The position numbers and the translations under genes are program-made. From a virus (Duplodnaviria; Heunggongvirae; Uroviricota; Caudoviricetes): 15,041 nucleotides of DNA. Where the stretch lies: positions 1 to 15,041 of IMG/VR virus record IMGVR_UViG_2579778989_000004. One strand, given 5' to 3'. The notes under the pieces were generated by a model. The model was not told the origin of the DNA. It did no database searches and was given only the letters and a program-made list of their open reading frames with translations. Positions 1,043 to 15,041 of the stretch are shown here, piece after piece (the stretch's first letter is position 1; every line of letters begins with the position of its first letter).

Positions 1043-1357
1043 ATGACTCAAAACTATGAACTGATTGTGAAAGGGATCCGCAATTTTGAGAATAAAGTTA
1101 CGGTAACTTTAGCGTTACGGGACAAAAAACGCTTTGACGGTGAAATTTTTGACCTGGACATCTCGCTGGACCGTGTTGAAGGTGCCGCGCTGGAGTTTTA
1201 TGAGGCAGCAGCCAGAAGGAGCATCAGACAGGTCTTCATGGATGTTGCTGCCGGGTTATGTGAAGGGGACGAGCTGTTGCCAGAAACGCGCCCCTGTTCA
1301 GAGGCGCGGTATACCATAAAAATTAACAGTTCTGATAACTCGATTACGGGTTGTTAG
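1043..1357 (+). CDS. ydfR: Small protein of unknown function (104 aa) between holin and endolysin. Resembles YdfR (DUF1327) of the E. coli Qin prophage lysis region.
   Basis: Complete ORF with ATG 4 nt after the holin stop. The N-terminus MTQNYELIVKGIRNFENKVTVT...FDGEIFDLD...VEGAALEFYEAAARRS matches my recollection of YdfR. The holin, ydfR, lysozyme order is that of Qin. Confidence 0.6.
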   Translation: MTQNYELIVKGIRNFENKVTVTLALRDKKRFDGEIFDLDISLDRVEGAALEFYEAAARRSIRQVFMDVAAGLCEGDELLPETRPCSEARYTIKINSSDNSITGC

Positions 1358-1412
1358 CTTTTTGCAGTTGGCTTTCCAGTATCTTTCATTGGTAGCATCC
1401 TGATAAATATCC

Positions 1413-1946
1413 ATGAGCGCAAAAATCAAATACGGCCTGTCAGCTGCTGTTCTGGCGCTGATTGCTGCAGGCGCGTCTGCTCCTCAAATACTTGACCAGT
1501 TTCTGGATGAAAAAGAGGGTAACCACACTACGGCATACCGCGATGGTTCCGGTATATGGACCATCTGTCGTGGTGCCACAATGGTGGATGGTAAGCCCGT
1601 CATACCGGGAATGAAGCTGTCGAAGGAAAAATGCGACCAGGTTAACGCTATTGAACGTGATAAGGCGCTGGCATGGGTGGAGCGCAATATTAAAGTACCA
1701 CTGACCGAACCACAGAAAGCGGGTATAGCGTCATTCTGTCCCTATAACATTGGCCCCGGTAAGTGTTTCCCGTCGACGTTTTATAAGCGGCTGAATGCCG
1801 GTGATCGTAAGGGCGCATGCGAGGCGATTCGCTGGTGGATAAAAGATGGTGGGCGCGATTGCCGCATACGTTCAAATAACTGCTATGGACAGGTTATTCG
1901 TCGTGACCAGGAAAGCGCATTAGCCTGTTGGGGGATAGATCAGTGA
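1413..1946 (+). CDS. R: SAR endolysin, a GH24 lysozyme (phage 21 R21 / RrrD-RrrQ type), 177 aa.
   Basis: N-terminal weakly hydrophobic Gly/Ala-rich segment ([15 protein letters not shown]) typical of a signal-anchor-release domain. The E...D...T catalytic pattern ([16 protein letters not shown]) and C-terminal CWG motif match T4-lysozyme-like SAR endolysins. Follows a pinholin. Confidence 0.9.
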
Positions 1947-2401
1947 GCAGAGTCGCAGCGATTATTTATACTCTGGTTATCTGCACCATCGTCTGCCTGT
2001 CATGGGCTGTTAATCATTACCGCGATAACGCCATTACCTACAAAGCCCAGCGCGACAAAAATGCCAGAGAACTGAAGCTGGCGAACGTGGTAATTACTGA
2101 CATGCAGATGCGTCAGCGTGATGTAGCAGATCTCGACGCCAGATACACAAAGGAGCTTGCTGATGCTAACGCGACTATCGAAAGTCTTCGTGCTGATGTT
2201 TCTGCTGGGCGTAAGCGCCTGCAAGTCGCCGCCACCTGTGCAAAGTCAACGACCGGAGCCAGCAGCATGGGCGATGGAGAAAGCCCAAGACTTACAGCAG
2301 ATGCTGAACTCAATTATTACCGTCTCCGAAGTGGAATCGACAAGATAACCGCTCAGGTCAACTACCTGCAGGAGTACATCAGGACGCAGTGCTTAAAATA
2401 A
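1943..2401 (+). CDS. Rz: Rz inner-membrane spanin (i-spanin). The start is GTG at 1943, overlapping the endolysin TGA stop.
   Basis: The translation [62 protein letters not shown]... is near-identical to lambda Rz as I recall it. The GTG start is chosen over the track's TTG at 1928 by alignment to the lambda Rz N-terminus. Confidence 0.85.
2157..2348 (+). CDS. Rz1: Rz1 outer-membrane lipoprotein spanin (o-spanin), embedded in the +1 frame of Rz.
   Basis: 63-aa ORF lying wholly within Rz in a different frame. Signal peptide with lipobox LLGVSAC followed by a proline-rich segment ([13 protein letters not shown]), as in lambda Rz1. Confidence 0.75.
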
Positions 2402-2438
2402 TTTTAATTTCACTGAAATTTAATACGTGACTTTCAGG

Positions 2439-2469
2439 AAAATGCCTCGCAGATGCGGGGCATTTTTGT
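2439..2469. terminator. Strong intrinsic terminator after the lysis cassette, potentially bidirectional.
   Basis: AAAATGCCTCGC, loop AGAT, GCGGGGCATTTTTGT: a ~12-bp GC-rich stem with one G-U pair, an A-tract upstream and a T-tract downstream. Confidence 0.55.
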
Positions 2470-2760
2470 ACAGGTATTTCACCGCGCACCGCAGCGCACT
2501 CAACCACGTCGAACCAAACCCTTTGGAATGAGCCTTTGAGTAGTCAGTTAGTGCTGGTGAGCCTTGACGGGCTGATCTCCTATGCAGCAAAGGTTCATCT
2601 CAAAGTAAGACGAACGCTATGACAAACCAAGATTCTATAGACCTATCTGATCTTCGTGGAATGGTCAGTTTTCCAGACAAAAGGTAATCACCATAGTCGT
2701 ATGGCTATGAATCTTGTTGCTGCAGATAAGCATTTTGTGATTGAAGTGGTCAAATCTCTC

Positions 2761-2789
2761 AAATGCAGTAAAATGCAGTGCGCTATAAT
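2761..2789 (+). promoter_or_regulatory. Putative sigma70 promoter for the 206-aa gene, with a tandem 10-bp repeat in the -35/spacer region.
   Basis: Consensus -10 TATAAT at 2784-2789, 28 nt upstream of a strong AAGGAG SD (2807-2812) and the ATG at 2818. AAATGCAGTA and AAATGCAGTG are direct tandem repeats at 2761-2780. No convincing -35 hexamer was found. Confidence 0.35.
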
Positions 2790-2817
2790 TCAATAACGGA
2801 GGGAGTAAGGAGAAGTC

Positions 2818-3438
2818 ATGAAAGATCAAGATGTTAGGTTCGCGGTGCATCATAAGCTTTTGAAAGAATCGCATTTAGATCCAGACTGCCTTGTGGTCGA
2901 TGAATTTTCCATATCCCTTGGCGCCAGTAGAGCAGACATTGCTGTAATAAATGGTGTTATACACGGGTACGAGCTCAAAAGTGAATATGACTCTTTGGAG
3001 CGTTTGCCTCTTCAAATCAAGCATTATTCTTCTGTAATGGACAAGGTTACTCTTGTCGTAGCTGAGAAACACCTTGAGGGAGCATTAAAGTTAATCCCAG
3101 GTTGGTGGGGCGTTAAAACGGTTTCTGTTGGGCCAAAAGGCGCCATTCTTATAAAGCACATGCGTGGAGAAAAGCTTAATCGAAACCATGACACATTGAT
3201 GCTCGCTCAATTGCTTTGGAAAGATGAATGTATCGACGTACTTGAACGATGGGGCTATTCCAAAGGAATCAAAAGCAAGCCCCGATTTGAGTTATGGAAT
3301 ATTATTGCGGAAAATATTCCAATAGCGAATCTCAGGCCTGAAGTCAGAACAGCCTTAAAGAAACGCGTAGGCTGGAAAGTTAAGGCTTGGCAGGCTGAGT
3401 CTGCGCCAACCAATAAAGCTGTCTCACGACTAACGTAA
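2818..3438 (+). CDS. Hypothetical protein (206 aa) with an N-terminal PD-(D/E)xK-like nuclease motif. AT-rich accessory gene.
   Basis: Complete ORF with SD AAGGAG at 5-nt spacing. Residues D28-E29, D40 (RADIAVING) and E52-L-K54 (HGYELKSE) fit the hhhD-x(n)-hhExK pattern on predicted beta strands. GC content is visibly lower than in the flanking phage genes. Confidence 0.7.
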   Translation: MKDQDVRFAVHHKLLKESHLDPDCLVVDEFSISLGASRADIAVINGVIHGYELKSEYDSLERLPLQIKHYSSVMDKVTLVVAEKHLEGALKLIPGWWGVKTVSVGPKGAILIKHMRGEKLNRNHDTLMLAQLLWKDECIDVLERWGYSKGIKSKPRFELWNIIAENIPIANLRPEVRTALKKRVGWKVKAWQAESAPTNKAVSRLT

Positions 3439-4447
3439 TATGGTGCGTATGTGCAACTTTACGCCATTCTTTAGAGCCGCCAGATTTGTTAGCGCCTAAT
3501 GATCTTTGGTAAATGTAATCATCCCCCCAACTAAATTTGGAGCCAAAGACTTGATACTCTGGCGAACTAACAAGGGTAGTACATAAGTTTTTAGTTTGGC
3601 CCCATCCATTTCCTTTAACTGCGGTACCTTTTACAAAGATCCATGAGGTATCGTTCGAATATCTCACTGAGACATACTGAGACATGAAGCGTGGGTCTAC
3701 GCTCGTAATGGTAGAGCTAGCGGTGGGATAATCACTAAAACTTGGCGTTCTTCCATTGCTAAAATTCTGTACTACGTACATCCAAAGATCGTATTCATGG
3801 CGCGGAATATGATGAACTTGATGTTGCGGTATCCCTGCCTGTGATGCCGGGTATGCGGTTGAAGATAAAATCAAGTTTCTCCACGGAGCTTGGCCTGATA
3901 ATGTGTTGACCATGCTTAATGCTTGTTGTTTTAAACTATCAGTTGCGTTTTGAATATCTCCAAAATCAATGATTACATCAATTAAACTAGGATGAATATT
4001 TAAGTGGTTAACCAGACTTGTGAATTGGTGCCATGTCTGGGGGGTGATAGACATAGCGAGCCCATTGATTAAGTTGCGTTGAACAGCATGTATATAGTTT
4101 GTTGAATATGCGGGAGAAACAACAGGGATAATTTCCTTACCATTTACTCTAGCATCTTGGATACACATATCTAGAGGATGATGGCGGCTCGAACCATGTT
4201 TATCTAAATATTTAACATCCAGCAAAACAGGACGATTGGCTTTCCAGGATGCCGCAAGGTTAATACCGAAGTCAGATAAGTAAGAACTCAAACTCTTCTT
4301 GTAGCATTCGTTTTCATAATCCCAGTCTATGTCTGGAATGGTAATGATCGGAGTAAAACCAGAGAGCGTAGTTTGATCTAAAAGCATCAGAGATTCATAT
4401 TCAGCAGGCTTCCATTTCAGCTGTGGATAATATTGATGTTGACTCAT
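3380..4447 (-). CDS. Hypothetical protein (355 aa), family not recognised. Convergent with the 206-aa gene and overlapping its 3' end by ~59 bp.
   Basis: Long minus-strand ORF in AT-rich DNA, where spurious long ORFs are unlikely. ATG at 4447-4445 with SD AAGGAG (complement of 4453-4458) at 5-nt spacing. No Walker A or other motif I can assign. Confidence 0.7.
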   Translation of the reverse strand: MSQHQYYPQLKWKPAEYESLMLLDQTTLSGFTPIITIPDIDWDYENECYKKSLSSYLSDFGINLAASWKANRPVLLDVKYLDKHGSSRHHPLDMCIQDARVNGKEIIPVVSPAYSTNYIHAVQRNLINGLAMSITPQTWHQFTSLVNHLNIHPSLIDVIIDFGDIQNATDSLKQQALSMVNTLSGQAPWRNLILSSTAYPASQAGIPQHQVHHIPRHEYDLWMYVVQNFSNGRTPSFSDYPTASSTITSVDPRFMSQYVSVRYSNDTSWIFVKGTAVKGNGWGQTKNLCTTLVSSPEYQVFGSKFSWGDDYIYQRSLGANKSGGSKEWRKVAHTHHITLVVRQLYWLAQTQPAKP

Positions 4448-4639
4448 TAAAACTCCTTAAAATCTTTACTTATCCTAAGTATAGTGTTATGGCGTAACGC
4501 CAATTGTTTTTATACACTTGAAAACATTGGGAAAAGTTGAGCTATATCTAAATTTACAAAATTGGATGTTATAGAAATCGAGGTTTCAACTAGGCATGGA
4601 ACTGCAAAATTTTTAATGCCTGCACGCGAAAGTCGTTGG

Positions 4640-4850
4640 CGGGTCCTTTCCGGTGATCCAGATCGTTACGGGGCGGCGACCTCGCGGGTTTTCGCTATTT
4701 ATGAAAATTTTTAGGGAAAAATCAGATCCGTTCTTCTTCTTTTTAACTGATTGATTATCAATAGAATTTTAAAAATATAAAAGGATCTGACAAAGGCTGT
4801 TTTTGTTAGAAAACGCCATTTTCAGATCCTTTCTGGTTCCCGGGGGAGTG
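4640..4850. other. cos: cos site (cosQ, cosN, cosB) of a lambda-type packaging system. The 12-nt cohesive-end sequence GGGCGGCGACCT is at 4671-4682.
   Basis: GTCGTTGGCGGGTCCTTTCCGGTGATCC...GTTACGGGGCGGCGACCTCGCGGGTTTTCGCTATTTATGAAAATTTT matches the lambda right-end/left-end junction as I recall it. It lies immediately upstream of a Nu1 homologue. Downstream cosB-like repeats are described in findings. Confidence 0.85.
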
Positions 4851-4851
4851 T

Positions 4852-5400
4852 ATGAACGTCAATAAGAAAAAACTGGCCGATATTTTTGGCGTTGATGTCA
4901 GGACCATCACCGCCTGGCAGAGTCAGGGGTTACCACTAGTTTCTGGTGGAGGGAAAGGGACTGAATCAGTTTTTGATACAACTGCTGCCATTCAGTGGTA
5001 TGCGCAGAGGGAAGCTGATATTGAAAACGAAAAACTCCGTAAAGAGATCGAGGATTTGAGGGCTGCCAGCGAATCAGACCTTCAGCCCGGCACCATTGAT
5101 TACGAACGTTACCGACTGACGAAGGCACAGGCCGATGCACAGGAGCTGAAAAATGCTCGTGAGGAAGGCCTTGTCCTCGAGACGGAGTTATTTACCTACA
5201 TCTTTCAGCGAGTGGCACAGAATATATCAGGGATCCTTGTCCGTGTCCCTCAGACACTGCAGCGTAAATACCCTGATATATCACCCGTACATCTTGATGC
5301 TGTGAAAACTGAAATCGCGAAAGCATCCGATGTGGCTTCTGAAGCCGGTGAGAATGTGCGCAGGTGGATTGATGATTTCAGACGAACTGAGGGCGGCTAA
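4852..5400 (+). CDS. nu1: Terminase small subunit (lambda gpNu1 homologue), 182 aa.
   Basis: [29 protein letters not shown]...[58 protein letters not shown] is closely similar to lambda Nu1 (N-terminal winged-HTH region) from memory. Confidence 0.95.
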
Positions 5401-12824: not shown

Positions 12825-13484
12825 ATGGCGATAAAAGGGCTTGATCAGGCGATTGACAATCTGAGCCGGGTTCGTAAAAACGCCATTCCGGCTGCTTCTG
12901 CAATGACCATTAACCGCGTGGCCACAACGGCGATTAATCAGTCTTCGTCACAGGTTGCCCGGGAAACCAGGGTGAGACGGAAACTGGTAAAGGAACGGTC
13001 CAGACTGAAACGGGCGACGGTCAGAAATCCGAATGCCAGAATTATCGTTAACCGCGGTGATCTCCCTGTGATTAAGCTGGGGATCAGAATGCTGGGGCGT
13101 CGTCCGAACAGCATACTCAAAGCCGGTCAGCATCGTTATCAGCGGGCATTTATCCAGCGATTAAATAATGGGCGCTGGCATGTTATGCAACGTCTTCCCC
13201 AGGCCAGATATGAGGAGGGCAATGACGACAAGGGAAGGAAAAAGCGTAATCGCCTTCCCATTCAGGTGGTGAAAATCCCGATGGCGGCCCCACTGAAACA
13301 GGCATTTGATGAGAATGTTGACCGTATCCGGCGTGAACGCCTGCCTAAAGAACTGGCAACTGAAGACGCAGACGTTATATCTGGTGAAAAACGTCTGCGT
13401 CTTAACTACAACGGCATAATTGCATTGTTAGTCGAGGGCTTTAAAACACTTCGTCATGAGATTAAAGAACTCCGGGAGAAGTAA
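12825..13484 (+). CDS. Z: Tail assembly protein Z homologue (lambda gpZ) with a divergent, longer C-terminus; possibly a chimeric 3' end.
   Basis: The N-terminus MAIKGL(D/E)QA..NLSR...AMTINRVA...SQVARET.VRRKLVKER.RLKRATV.NP.ARI.VNRGDLPVIKLG and the segment AFIQ.L.NGRWHVMQR...VVKIPMA.PL...RIRRERLPKEL match lambda Z. The last ~42 residues (ATEDADVISGEKRLRLNYNGIIALLVEGFKTLRHEIKELREK) do not. Confidence 0.85.
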   Translation: MAIKGLDQAIDNLSRVRKNAIPAASAMTINRVATTAINQSSSQVARETRVRRKLVKERSRLKRATVRNPNARIIVNRGDLPVIKLGIRMLGRRPNSILKAGQHRYQRAFIQRLNNGRWHVMQRLPQARYEEGNDDKGRKKRNRLPIQVVKIPMAAPLKQAFDENVDRIRRERLPKELATEDADVISGEKRLRLNYNGIIALLVEGFKTLRHEIKELREK

Positions 13485-13569
13485 ACGACAGCTGTTGTAG
13501 TTTCTGGTTTCTACTGAATTTAAATTGTGGGGTGACACTCACCCCACGCATTCAGAAGGGGGAGATGAG

Positions 13570-13893
13570 ATGGGGGTAACATCGGGATGGGTAGGCTCTT
13601 CGGCTAAGAGCGAAACAGGTGAGCAGTGGATGGGAGCCGCCGGAACCAAACTGGGACTGAGTAAACCTTTTATGATGAGCCAAATGGTTGGGCGAACTAT
13701 GGGCTGTAAAATTGCAACTGAGTACTATAAATGGAAATCCTCTGACAAGGTTGATAACTGGGGCGCAGTTGGCGCTGACTGGCCTTTAGAAGAAAAAAGT
13801 AAAGGTACAATTACAAACGCCGCAAGCTGCGGATCAGGGAGGCTGGTAGGGGCTGTCGTTACACTTTCTCACTTTTTGACGAACTCTACGTAA
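13570..13893 (+). CDS. Small Gly/Trp-rich hypothetical protein (~107 aa from ATG 13570). Its stop codon lies in the first bases of the IS66-family terminus, so the gene may be truncated.
   Basis: ORF with SD-like AAGGGGGAG upstream of ATG 13570 (the track's TTG start is at 13525). The TAA at 13891-13893 is part of the GTAAGCG at 13890-13896. No recognisable family. Confidence 0.4.
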   Translation: MGVTSGWVGSSAKSETGEQWMGAAGTKLGLSKPFMMSQMVGRTMGCKIATEYYKWKSSDKVDNWGAVGADWPLEEKSKGTITNAASCGSGRLVGAVVTLSHFLTNST

Positions 13894-15041
13894 GCGACTC
13901 GTCAGAACCGTATTGATATTTACTGAGAGCTCAGATCAACTTTCCAGGGCAACAGATCGCGTACCCGGTTTGCCGGCCAGTCCTGGATATGTTCAATGAC
14001 GTAACGCAGCCACTTTTCTGGCTCCACATTGTTCAGACGGCATGTGCCGATCAGCGAGTACAACACCGCCGCATGTTCACCACCGCTGTCGGAACCCGCG
14101 AACATCCAGTTTTTCCGGCCTACGGCCACTCCCCGTAAGGCGTTCTCTGCGATGTTGTTGTCGATTTCCACCCAGCCATTACTGCAGTACACGTTCAGTG
14201 CATCCCACTGTTTCAGCAGGTATGCGAACGCTTTTGCCGTATCTGAGTGACGCGACAGTGTTTTCATCTGTTGCTGTATCCAGTCATACAGTGACTGCAT
14301 CAGTGGCGCGGCTCTGGCTTTTCTTGCCGCCAGACGCTGTTCTGCTGAACAGCCCCGGACCTCTGCCTCGATGGCATACAGTTCACCGATACGCTGCAGG
14401 GCTTCCGTGGTGATGTAGGTGGGCGCTCTTGCATGCACATCGTGGATTTTTCTCCGGGCATGAGCCATACACGCGGCTTCCGTTATTCTGCCGGATTCGT
14501 ATAACGCCCGGTAACCACCGTAAGCATCGGCCTGAAGCACACCGCTGTAACCGGCCAGGTGATTTTGTGGATGGATACCTTTCCGGTCCGGACTGTACGC
14601 GAACCAGACCGCCGGGGGCATCTGTGAACCGGCGTTACGGTCATCACGGACGTAGACCCACAGCCGGGCTGTCCGGGTTTTACCGCTGCCCGGCTCCTGG
14701 ACCGGGACGGGGATATCATCAGCATGGACTTTACCGGGCATCAGCACATACTGGCGCAGGACGTCATACAGCGGCTCCAGCAGTTCAGCAACAGCACCTG
14801 TCCAGCGCCCCAGTGTGGCACGGCTCAGCTCCACTCCCTGACGACGGTATATTTCTGACTGGCGGTATAACGGCAGATGGTCTGCATATTTCCCGGTGAC
14901 AACATGGGCCAGAAGCCCCGCTCCGGCATAACTGCGTGCAATGGGTTTTGAAGGTACTGGTGCCTGCACGATATGGTCGCACCGGCAACAGGCCTGTTTC
15001 GGACGTTGTGTTTCGATAACCTTAAAGGCGCTGCTGATAAG
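13890..15041 (-). mobile_element. IS66-family insertion sequence, partial (extends beyond the window end), inverted relative to the phage genes.
   Basis: GTAAGCG at 13890-13896 is typical of IS66-family terminal inverted repeats. It lies 30 bp outside the stop of a minus-strand IS66-type transposase gene. Confidence 0.7.
13920..15041 (-). CDS. tnpC: IS66-family transposase (TnpC-type), C-terminal ~374 codons; the N-terminus is outside the window.
   Basis: The minus-strand frame stays open past the track's GTG start at 14969 through to base 15041. The translation (…[28 protein letters not shown]…, …[36 protein letters not shown]…) is characteristic of IS66 TnpC. Cys-rich CCRC segment upstream. 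Confidence 0.85.

What the first reader, a model, noticed from the sequence alone, without database searches (positions are those of the whole stretch)
3380..4447. 355-aa partner protein of unknown family, convergent and overlapping with the putative nuclease gene
This long ORF has no P-loop or other catalytic signature I can recognise, and is rich in Ser/Thr/Tyr/Trp. The convergent arrangement means the two transcripts would be complementary over ~59 nt at their 3' ends, which could give antisense coupling between the genes. The protein could be a sensor or regulator (or antitoxin-like partner) for the putative nuclease, or the effector itself.
Basis: inference. Interest (0 to 1): 0.6.

Follow-up and report, generated by a model that had tools for sequence, protein, structure and literature searches.

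The report
Prophage beta–cII nuclease defence gene pair
The 355-residue protein belongs to the known phage P4 "beta" family and sits tail-to-tail with a P4 cII-like nuclease in an E. coli lambda-like prophage, forming a toxin-less two-gene version of a known but mechanistically unsolved anti-phage system.

Summary
The ORF is real: 3380..4447 (-), 355 aa, overlapping the convergent 206-aa ORF 2818..3438 (+) by 59 nt. It is not of unknown family. It is a full-length Pfam PF14350 Beta_protein (E 8e-56), named "beta family protein" in RefSeq. The partner is an sce7726 / P4 cII family PD-(D/E)xK nuclease. The window is an E. coli lambdoid prophage, and the pair forms a 41.5% GC island between the Rz lysis gene and cosN.

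Phage P4 carries gop-beta-cII, a validated anti-phage system, with beta and cII convergent as here. The window has no gop. A beta homologue is also required for PD-lambda-2 defence.

All 24 beta lineages examined, plus a Gordonia actinophage, keep the tail-to-tail layout, mostly overlapping by 32-89 nt. The 59-nt overlap here arose from one base change that removed the cII stop. Beta diverges faster than cII.

Best reading: a prophage-borne defence module with cII as effector nuclease and beta as sensor or regulator, possibly with 3' antisense coupling. This is a new variant of a known kind, of moderate interest.

The parts
2402..4670 (.). Low-GC accessory ('moron') island between the Rz lysis gene and cosN of a lambdoid prophage
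   Evidence: GC is 41.5% against 53.7% for the rest of the window. Flanks are Rz at 1928..2401 and Nu1 at 4852..5400. The full island occurs in only 126 of 5426 complete E. coli genomes, while its flanks match 4228 genomes.
2747..2774 (+). Sigma-70-like promoter candidate upstream of the cII-like gene (weak)
   Evidence: TGGTCA-16-TAAAAT, 9 of 12 matches, 44 nt before the ATG. The count of such sites is no higher than in shuffled sequence, so this is only a candidate.
2818..3438 (+). P4 cII-like / sce7726-family PD-(D/E)xK nuclease gene (206 aa)
3388..3390 (+). TGG codon (Trp191 of cII) that replaces the TAG stop used by the nearest relatives
   Evidence: DNA alignment A3. Relatives read GCT-AGG on the beta strand, which is TAG on the cII strand. 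E. coli reads GCC-AAG, which is TGG. The change is synonymous in beta (Ala353). It lengthens cII from 190 to 206 aa and the overlap from 11 to 59 nt.
3380..3438 (.). 59-nt convergent overlap of the two coding regions
   Evidence: It encodes beta residues 336-355 (end of the C-terminal helix, plus the stop codon). On the other strand it encodes cII residues 188-206 plus the stop, which are predicted disordered, with pLDDT below 50 for 189-206.
3380..4447 (-). Beta-family protein gene (355 aa), a divergent TIM barrel
4671..4682 (+). cosN cohesive-end sequence GGGCGGCGACCT, 224 nt from the beta start codon
   Evidence: Single exact match. Its identity with the lambda left end is from my own knowledge of the lambda sequence. 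The Nu1 and terminase genes follow.
4754..4793 (-). Two overlapping promoter-like sites on the beta strand, lying on the far side of cos (weak)
   Evidence: TTGTCA-16-TAAAAT (10 of 12) and TTTATA-16-GATAAT (9 of 12). These are consensus matches only. No better site was found between cos and the beta ATG.

Best explanation
The 355-aa protein and the 206-aa protein together form a two-gene accessory module carried by an E. coli lambda-like prophage next to its cos site. It is the beta-cII core of the phage-P4 gop-beta-cII anti-phage system, without the membrane toxin Gop. The most likely function is protection of the lysogen against other phages.

The cII-like protein is a metal-dependent PD-(D/E)xK DNA endonuclease with a C-terminal helical, probably DNA-binding, domain. 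It acts as the effector.

The beta protein is a TIM barrel with a conserved polar pocket. It acts as the infection sensor or regulator that licenses or restrains the effector, by protein contact or through a small-molecule or phosphodiester chemistry that is still unknown.

The two genes have separate convergent promoters and abutting or overlapping 3' ends. Each mRNA therefore has to run into the other gene. This could balance their expression through antisense pairing or polymerase collision.

Shown here: family membership of both proteins, both folds, intact catalytic residues in the nuclease, the prophage and cos context, absence of gop, and conservation of the tail-to-tail layout.

Inferred: the defence function of this gop-less version, the division of roles between the two proteins, and any RNA-level coupling.
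For: Family membership: PF14350 E 8e-56; sce7726 E 2e-54; PADLOC PD-Lambda-2_C, beta and cll.

P4 layout: gop and beta on the + strand, cII on the - strand, convergent as in the window.

Literature: gop-beta-cII protects against lambda and P1, and Gop is toxic without beta (PMC9122126). It is triggered by a phage accessory protein (bioRxiv 10.1101/2023.04.06.535777). PD-lambda-2C, 'related to a P4 phage antitoxin', is needed for defence but not for toxin neutralisation (PMC9519451). Beta therefore partners three different putative effectors.

Context: a low-GC island at the Rz-cos position of a lambdoid prophage. The same pair sits at other accessory positions in Yersinia, Vibrio, Acinetobacter, Rac-like and Gordonia phages.

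Folds: TIM barrel and PD-(D/E)xK with D40/E52/K54.

Beta conservation: family-wide invariant residues are Y6, D161, D239, W328 and H336. Near-invariant are E16, H56, D77, R133, R216, Y240, R262, Y263, D309 and H335.

Divergence: beta is more divergent than cII in all 25 lineage comparisons, for example 30% against 54%. This is as expected for a sensor facing phage proteins.

Architecture: tail-to-tail in 24 of 24 lineages, with 32-68 nt overlap in 17 of them and 89 nt in an actinophage. Conserved codons lie exactly 25 nt apart in the major clade.
Against: No experiment exists for a gop-less beta-cII pair, and no paper on one was found. In P4 the only demonstrated toxin is Gop, not cII, and the contribution of cII to defence was not dissected.

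The beta pocket looks enzymatic, so 'sensor' may be too passive a description. The closest folds are generic and give no chemistry.

The overlap length varies from -27 to +89 nt. Here it is due to a recent stop loss that adds a disordered tail, so the overlap may simply be tolerated.

The promoter calls are weak. Physical interaction between the two proteins was not tested.
Confidence: 0.55

Rival explanations
1. A restriction-modification-like pair. Beta would be a TIM-barrel enzyme that chemically modifies DNA or a nucleotide pool to mark self. The cII-like nuclease would cut DNA lacking, or carrying, that mark.
Against: The DpdA and TGT similarity is no better than that to dozens of unrelated TIM barrels, all at 13% identity or less. 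In P4, beta neutralises Gop, a two-transmembrane-helix protein rather than a nuclease. In PD-lambda-2, beta is dispensable for neutralisation. Three natural loci keep an intact cII with a broken or missing beta, which an unprotected restriction enzyme should not tolerate. Modification enzymes usually evolve more slowly than their nucleases, whereas here beta evolves faster.
Confidence: 0.12
2. A pure addiction (toxin-antitoxin) module that stabilises the prophage. cII would be the toxin and beta its protein antitoxin, with no role in phage defence.
For: Gop and beta were interpreted as a toxin-antitoxin pair. PD-lambda-2 is TA-like. The location on a mobile element also fits.
Against: The genes are convergent and not co-transcribed, unlike type II TA operons. 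Loci with a frameshifted, inverted or absent beta but an intact cII exist (L049, L082, L060). Related systems do defend against phage.
Confidence: 0.12
3. A function in the phage's own life cycle. This could be lysogeny control, as the historical name cII implies, or DNA repair or recombination, as the MmcB-like similarity implies. Beta would be a metabolic helper.
For: The name 'cII' comes from a clear-plaque phenotype in P4 (my recollection; the 1990 paper could not be read). The best structural match is the MmcB-like protein 3dnx. The cII gene is co-oriented with late or early phage operons in several prophages.
Against: The genes are non-essential in P4. The position within phage genomes is variable: next to cos, inside the lysis cassette, beside the integrase, or beside the repressor. 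The pair has foreign GC content and is present in only 126 of the 4228 E. coli genomes that share its flanks.
Confidence: 0.08
4. A non-functional remnant or mis-called ORF on the antisense strand of prophage junk.
For: The prophage in the window looks defective: the tail module is cut after gpZ and followed by an IS66 transposase.
Against: The match to the Pfam profile is full length. All family-invariant residues are present. The 90%-identity cluster has 412 member sequences, and its representative is 99% identical to the window protein. The AF2 model is high-confidence.
Confidence: 0.02

Closest known systems
Satellite phage P4 gop-beta-cII anti-phage system (Ghisotti 1990; Rousset 2022, PMC9122126; PADLOC/DefenseFinder 'gop_beta_cll')
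   Same: It has a beta-family protein of 355 aa and a cII/sce7726 PD-(D/E)xK protein. The two genes are convergent and tail to tail. The beta 5' end faces a nearby cos site. The module is carried by a temperate mobile element as non-essential cargo.
   Different: No gop (2-TM, SLATT-like toxin) is present in the window or in any of the other 23 lineages. Identity is only 22% for beta and 27% for cII. The cII here is 206 aa against 264 aa in P4. The genes overlap by 59 nt here, whereas P4 has a 27-nt spacer with an annotated terminator. The host element is a lambdoid prophage rather than a P4 satellite.
PD-lambda-2 (Vassallo 2022, PMC9519451)
   Same: Its third component is a beta-family protein. 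The window protein matches the PADLOC PD-Lambda-2_C profiles better (E 4e-32) than the P4 'beta' profile (E 3e-10). PD-lambda-2 defends against lambda-vir and behaves as abortive infection.
   Different: PD-lambda-2 pairs beta with a HigB-like protein and a toxic Xre-peptidase in one operon. Neither is present here. The cloned PD-lambda-2 fragment has flanks under 400 bp, too short for a whole cII gene (inference).
NCBIfam 'sce7726 family protein' (NF033832), Pfam PF26915 Phage_P4_cII, and MmcB-like PD-(D/E)xK proteins (PF06319; PDB 3dnx)
   Different: These are family names without a demonstrated biochemical activity. The window copy carries a 16-residue disordered C-terminal extension created by stop-codon loss.
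Effector nucleases of signalling immune systems (Can2/Card1, Cap4) and type II restriction endonucleases
   Different: cII has no CARF or SAVED sensor domain, no cyclase is present in the island, and there is no methyltransferase. The similarity is limited to the generic nuclease fold.
Type I toxin-antitoxin loci and convergent R-M operons with 3'-overlapping antisense transcripts
   Same: They are convergent genes whose transcripts must be complementary at their 3' ends. This offers RNase III or transcriptional-interference control (my knowledge of txpA/RatA-type loci).
   Different: Here both strands encode conserved proteins and no regulatory RNA is known. There is no Rfam match and no transcript data.

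Membership tests
Pfam PF14350 Beta_protein (P4 beta family) | Whole-protein HMM score above the gathering threshold, covering the full model | tested here: met
   190.3 bits against a cutoff of 27, E 8e-56. Residues 6-342 match profile positions 1-342 of 342.
Pfam PF14350 Beta_protein (P4 beta family) | Presence of the residues invariant across the family | tested here: met
   Y6, P33, P108, D161, P200, D239, G323, W328 and H336 are invariant in 56 diverse members, including P4 beta, and all are present in the window protein.
sce7726 / P4 cII family (NF033832, PF26915) - the partner gene | HMM score above the curated cutoff | tested here: met
   184.1 bits against a cutoff of 70. Homologues carry precomputed PF26915.
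PD-(D/E)xK nuclease superfamily - the partner gene | Alpha-beta-beta-beta-alpha-beta core with the D...(D/E)xK catalytic residues | tested here: met
gop-beta-cII defence system (P4 type) | A gop gene (about 133 aa, 2-TM toxin) immediately upstream of and co-transcribed with beta | tested here: not met
   tblastn with P4 Gop finds nothing in the window or in L003-L011. There is no minus-strand ORF of 40 aa or more between the beta start and cos. Only P4 has a tightly coupled upstream ORF.
gop-beta-cII defence system (P4 type) | Beta and cII homologues adjacent and convergent | tested here: met
gop-beta-cII defence system (P4 type) | Confers resistance to phage infection | not testable with these tools
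   Shown only for the P4 three-gene locus (PMC9122126).
PD-lambda-2 defence system | HigB-like gene and Xre-peptidase gene upstream of the beta homologue in one operon | tested here: not met
   The island holds only the two genes. No further ORF of 60 aa or more lies between Rz and cos.
PD-lambda-2 defence system | Third component of the beta family | tested here: met
   PADLOC PDLC03984 E 4e-32 and PDLC03983 E 2e-25.
Type II toxin-antitoxin operon | Toxin and antitoxin co-transcribed from one autoregulated promoter | tested here: not met
   The genes are on opposite strands and convergent.
Type II restriction-modification system | A DNA methyltransferase partner | tested here: not met
   Beta is a TIM barrel with no methyltransferase match in Pfam or NCBIfam.

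The most novel reading that the evidence does not exclude
The beta-cII pair would be an autonomous, phylum-spanning two-gene immune module of a new mechanistic type. Beta would be a TIM-barrel enzyme, perhaps a GDPD/PLC-like phosphodiesterase or a nucleotide-modifying enzyme. On sensing a phage protein it would make or destroy a small molecule, or modify nucleic acid, and thereby switch on the cII nuclease. The strictly conserved 3'-overlapping convergent gene layout would be a built-in antisense or transcriptional-interference circuit that sets the sensor-to-effector ratio. In the major clade the conserved codons of the two genes are fixed 25 nt apart. Gop in P4, and HigB/Xre-peptidase in PD-lambda-2, would be add-on effectors plugged into the same beta sensor.
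Probability: 0.15. Interest if true: 0.7.

Novelty: new variant of a known kind. Interest (0 to 1): 0.42.

Why it matters
Gop-beta-cII and PD-lambda-2 are validated anti-phage systems whose mechanisms are unknown. In both, the beta protein is the unexplained part.

This locus and its relatives show that the widespread, conserved unit is beta plus the cII nuclease. The Gop toxin that shaped the toxin-antitoxin interpretation is not part of that unit.

This redirects experiments toward the nuclease as effector and toward the TIM-barrel pocket of beta as the sensing or catalytic site. It also gives a minimal two-gene system in E. coli in which to test this.

Rule-based defence finders that require gop, which I believe but could not check, would miss such loci. 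They occur in about 2% of complete E. coli genomes at this one prophage site (126 of 5426).

The conserved overlapping convergent layout is a concrete, testable case of possible antisense control between two protein-coding immune genes.

Tried and rejected
1. Sequence search of beta and cII against PDB chains returned only noise, so no solved relative exists.

3. Tested whether beta equals NCBIfam 'sce7725'. No NCBIfam model hits any beta tested, including P4 beta. That link is unsupported.

4. My first conclusion was that the overlap is just a recent accident, based on the nearest relatives with 11, 4 and -4 nt. I revised this after wider sampling showed 32-89 nt overlaps in most lineages.

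5. Searched for terminators or a stable RNA structure at the overlap. There are no terminator-like sites. The folds are unremarkable, with z +1.2 and -2.2. There is no Rfam family.

6. Searched for gop or any extra small gene in the island and found none.

7. Literature searches on PF14350, sce7725, sce7726, 'beta family protein', the protein accessions, and MmcB with TIM barrel found no study of this pair. [quoted passage not shown]

8. Ghisotti 1990 (PMC249035) is not held, so the statements about P4 phenotypes are second-hand.

9. The genome-contig scan returned only 7 loci. Most comparative power came from viral contigs seeded on cII, which biases the sample toward cII-containing loci.

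Full report
**Observation**

The window holds an ATG-initiated ORF at 3380..4447 on the minus strand (355 aa). A plus-strand ORF at 2818..3438 (206 aa) converges on it, and the two share 3380..3438, which is 59 nt. RefSeq annotates exactly these two CDSs in E. coli 55989.

The 355-aa protein is Ser, Tyr, Trp and His rich (10.7, 5.4, 3.1 and 4.2%) and has no Walker A motif.

**Where the window comes from**

The 2400-4850 stretch is 100% identical to several E. coli chromosomes and 99.8% identical to strain 55989. The full island occurs in 126 of 5426 complete E. coli genomes, while its flanks match 4228.

The neighbours form the late region of a lambdoid prophage:
- holin, DUF1327/YdfR, lysozyme and Rz (1928..2401) lie upstream;
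- Nu1 (4852..5400), large terminase, portal, protease, decoration protein, major capsid, FI and gpZ lie downstream.

The 12-nt sequence GGGCGGCGACCT, which I recognise as lambda cosN, occurs once at 4671-4682.

The two genes therefore form an island between Rz and cos. Its GC is 41.5% against 53.7% for the rest of the window. This is the classic accessory ('moron') position of lambdoid phages.

**What the proteins are**

The 355-aa protein:
- It matches Pfam PF14350 Beta_protein over the entire model (E 8e-56).
- It matches PHROG 9159 (E 1e-152).
- It matches PADLOC profiles PD-Lambda-2_C (E 4e-32) and 'beta' (E 3e-10).

The 206-aa protein:
- It matches NCBIfam sce7726_fam (E 2e-54).
- It matches PADLOC 'cll' (E 4e-31).

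PGAP already names the two proteins 'beta family protein' and 'sce7726 family protein'.

In satellite phage P4 the gene order is gop (+), beta (+, 355 aa), cII (-, 264 aa). Beta and cII are convergent there too. The window proteins are distant homologues of the P4 proteins: 22% identity for beta (E 2e-7) and 27% for cII (E 3e-19).

**What is known about these systems**

- Rousset et al. showed that gop-beta-cII protects against lambda and P1. They cite Ghisotti 1990 for Gop being toxic without beta (PMC9122126).
- Their HHpred table calls Gop a 2-TM, SLATT-like protein and cII MmcB-like, NucS-like.
- Silas et al. found that a phage accessory protein, orf184, triggers gop-beta-cII cell death.
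- Vassallo et al. showed that the third gene of PD-lambda-2 is 'related to a P4 phage antitoxin'. [quoted passage not shown]
- I found no paper on a gop-less beta-cII pair or on the mechanism of beta.

**Structure**

An AlphaFold2 model of beta built on 26 homologues is confident (pLDDT 92.3, pTM 0.91). It shows alternating beta-alpha units followed by a beta-hairpin and a helical C-terminal part.

The beta family is large: 3765 clusters at 50% identity with E of 1e-3 or better. Across 56 diverse members, including P4 beta:
- invariant residues are Y6, P33, P108, D161, P200, D239, G323, W328 and H336;
- residues conserved at 90% or more are E16, H56, D77, R133, R216, Y240, R262, Y263, Q284, D309 and H335.

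Several of these sit at or just after predicted barrel strands: D77 after 74-77, R133 in 130-134, D161 in 156-164, and D239/Y240 after 236-238. TIM-barrel active sites lie in this position. I could not inspect coordinates, so a single shared pocket is an inference.

**The overlap**

In the closest relatives (Klebsiella, Pantoea, Pectobacterium, Edwardsiella) cII is 190 aa and the overlap is 11 nt. In Yersinia the overlap is 4 nt. Vibrio has a 4-nt gap, and P4 has a 27-nt gap with an annotated terminator.

The DNA alignment shows that E. coli and E. albertii changed GCT-AGG to GCC-AAG on the beta strand. The T-to-C change is synonymous for beta Ala353. On the other strand it turns the cII TAG stop into TGG (3388-3390), adding 16 residues. 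Those residues are the disordered tail. The exact 59 nt is therefore a recent by-product.

Wider sampling changes the picture. The sample covered 93 beta-cII pairs in 24 beta lineages (85% identity clusters), drawn from Acinetobacter, Enterobacteriaceae, an alphaproteobacterial genome and many viral contigs. Every pair is tail to tail:
- 17 lineages overlap by 32-68 nt;
- 4 lineages overlap by 4-11 nt;
- 3 lineages have small gaps.

Rac-SA53 annotates 'beta' and 'CII phage-like protein' with a 41-nt overlap. Gordonia phage Powerball gp33 (beta) and gp32 (sce7726, E 8e-43) overlap by 89 nt.

In the major clade, the conserved Trp codon of cII and the conserved His codon of beta are exactly 25 nt apart in 17 sampled loci. 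There the conserved C-terminal motifs of the two proteins are encoded on opposite strands of the same DNA. In the window's clade the distance is 64-73 nt.

No terminator-like hairpin or unusual fold lies at the junction, and there is no Rfam match. Each transcript therefore has to enter the other gene. RNA-level coupling is plausible and architecturally conserved, but it is not demonstrated.

**Other comparative points**

- Gop is found only in P4. No other lineage has a tightly coupled ORF upstream of beta. The two-gene unit is the common form.
- Beta is more divergent than cII in all 25 lineage comparisons. Typical values are 25-31% against 43-57%.
- The module sits at different accessory positions: inside the lysis cassette (Yersinia), beside the integrase (Vibrio, Gordonia), beside the repressor (Acinetobacter), and in the nin region (Rac).
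- Three loci keep an intact cII while beta is frameshifted (L049), split by a rearrangement (L082) or absent (L060). If these are not assembly artefacts, cII is not lethal without beta.

**Interpretation**

The pair is best read as a gop-less variant of the gop-beta-cII defence system, carried as a prophage moron. cII would be the DNA-nuclease effector. Beta would be the sensing or regulatory (possibly enzymatic) component. Four lines of evidence support the role assigned to beta:
- it is shared with Gop-based and PD-lambda-2 systems;
- it is required for defence but not for neutralisation in PD-lambda-2;
- it evolves fastest;
- cII survives without it.

I put this at about 0.55 overall and lower for the specific role split.

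The rivals are:
- an R-M-like modifying enzyme plus nuclease (0.12);
- a pure addiction module (0.12);
- a role in the phage's own lysogeny or repair (0.08);
- a dead remnant (0.02).

**Verdict**

Both families are known and annotated, and the system type is published. What is new is modest:
- the toxin-less two-gene form at the lambda Rz-cos site;
- the TIM-barrel and PD-(D/E)xK fold assignments;
- the phylum-spanning overlapping convergent layout;
- the single-base origin of this particular overlap.

Novelty: new variant of a known kind. Interest: 0.42.

Noticed in passing
window 12825-14969: The prophage structural module stops after minor tail protein Z (12825..13484). It is followed by a 122-aa ORF with only a Gp38_N tail-fibre-adhesin N-terminal domain (13525..13893), then an IS66-family transposase on the minus strand (13920..14969). 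GC skew flips there. The lambda tail genes U to J are missing from this position, so this copy of the prophage is probably defective.
   Followed up: partly
window 2157-2348: A 63-aa ORF is embedded in a different frame inside Rz. It has a lipoprotein-like signal (LLGVSAC) and a Pro-rich stretch, as expected for the Rz1 o-spanin. It is not annotated separately in the 55989 record.
   Followed up: no
window 4671-4682 and L002 (P4) 1-650: In both the lambdoid prophage and P4, the module has the same polarity relative to the packaging site: cos, then (gop) beta reading away from cos, then convergent cII. The beta start is 224 nt from cosN here. Rousset et al. note that the P4 hotspot is adjacent to cos. 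The only promoter-like sites on the beta strand lie across cos (4754-4793).
   Followed up: partly
L014, L061-L103 (major clade) versus window, L003-L011, L059: The spacing between the conserved cII Trp codon and the conserved beta His codon is exactly 25 nt in 17 sampled loci of the major clade, and 64-73 nt in the window's clade. The difference is 39 nt, or 13 codons. Nearly all overlaps equal 2 mod 3, so the two reading frames keep the same relative phase across lineages.
   Followed up: partly
L049 4566-5631; L082 2044-2871 and 4542-5093; L060 4001-5810: These are natural beta-null loci with an intact cII. L049 has a frameshift near beta residue 227. L082 has the 5' part of beta relocated and inverted about 1.7 kb away. 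L060 has cII alone after Rz, directly followed by an N-terminally truncated Ser/Thr kinase and a PP2C phosphatase.
   Followed up: partly
L001 (E. coli 55989) 1200-3440: The same prophage carries a Ser/Thr kinase plus PP2C phosphatase pair just downstream of the antiterminator Q gene. It also carries a truncated DNA methyltransferase and three tRNA genes (Ile, Arg, Arg). This may be a second defence-like or accessory island, lying outside the window.
   Followed up: no
window 2656-2796: A 46-aa GTG-initiated ORF ends 21 nt before the cII start, on the same strand. The cII promoter-like site lies inside it. It has no transmembrane character and no homology was tested. It is probably not a gene.
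   Followed up: no
window 2400-2622: The first 223 nt after Rz are about 87% identical to the Rz-rha junction of Salmonella phage P22 and relatives. They contain a hairpin plus T-run (about 2433-2466) that looks like a terminator after the lysis cassette. The simple terminator scan did not report it.
   Followed up: no
L102 (Gordonia phage Powerball) 2932-5891: In the actinophage, the beta-cII pair sits between the integrase cassette and a HicA/HicB toxin-antitoxin pair. The region is therefore a cluster of defence-like cargo.
   Followed up: no
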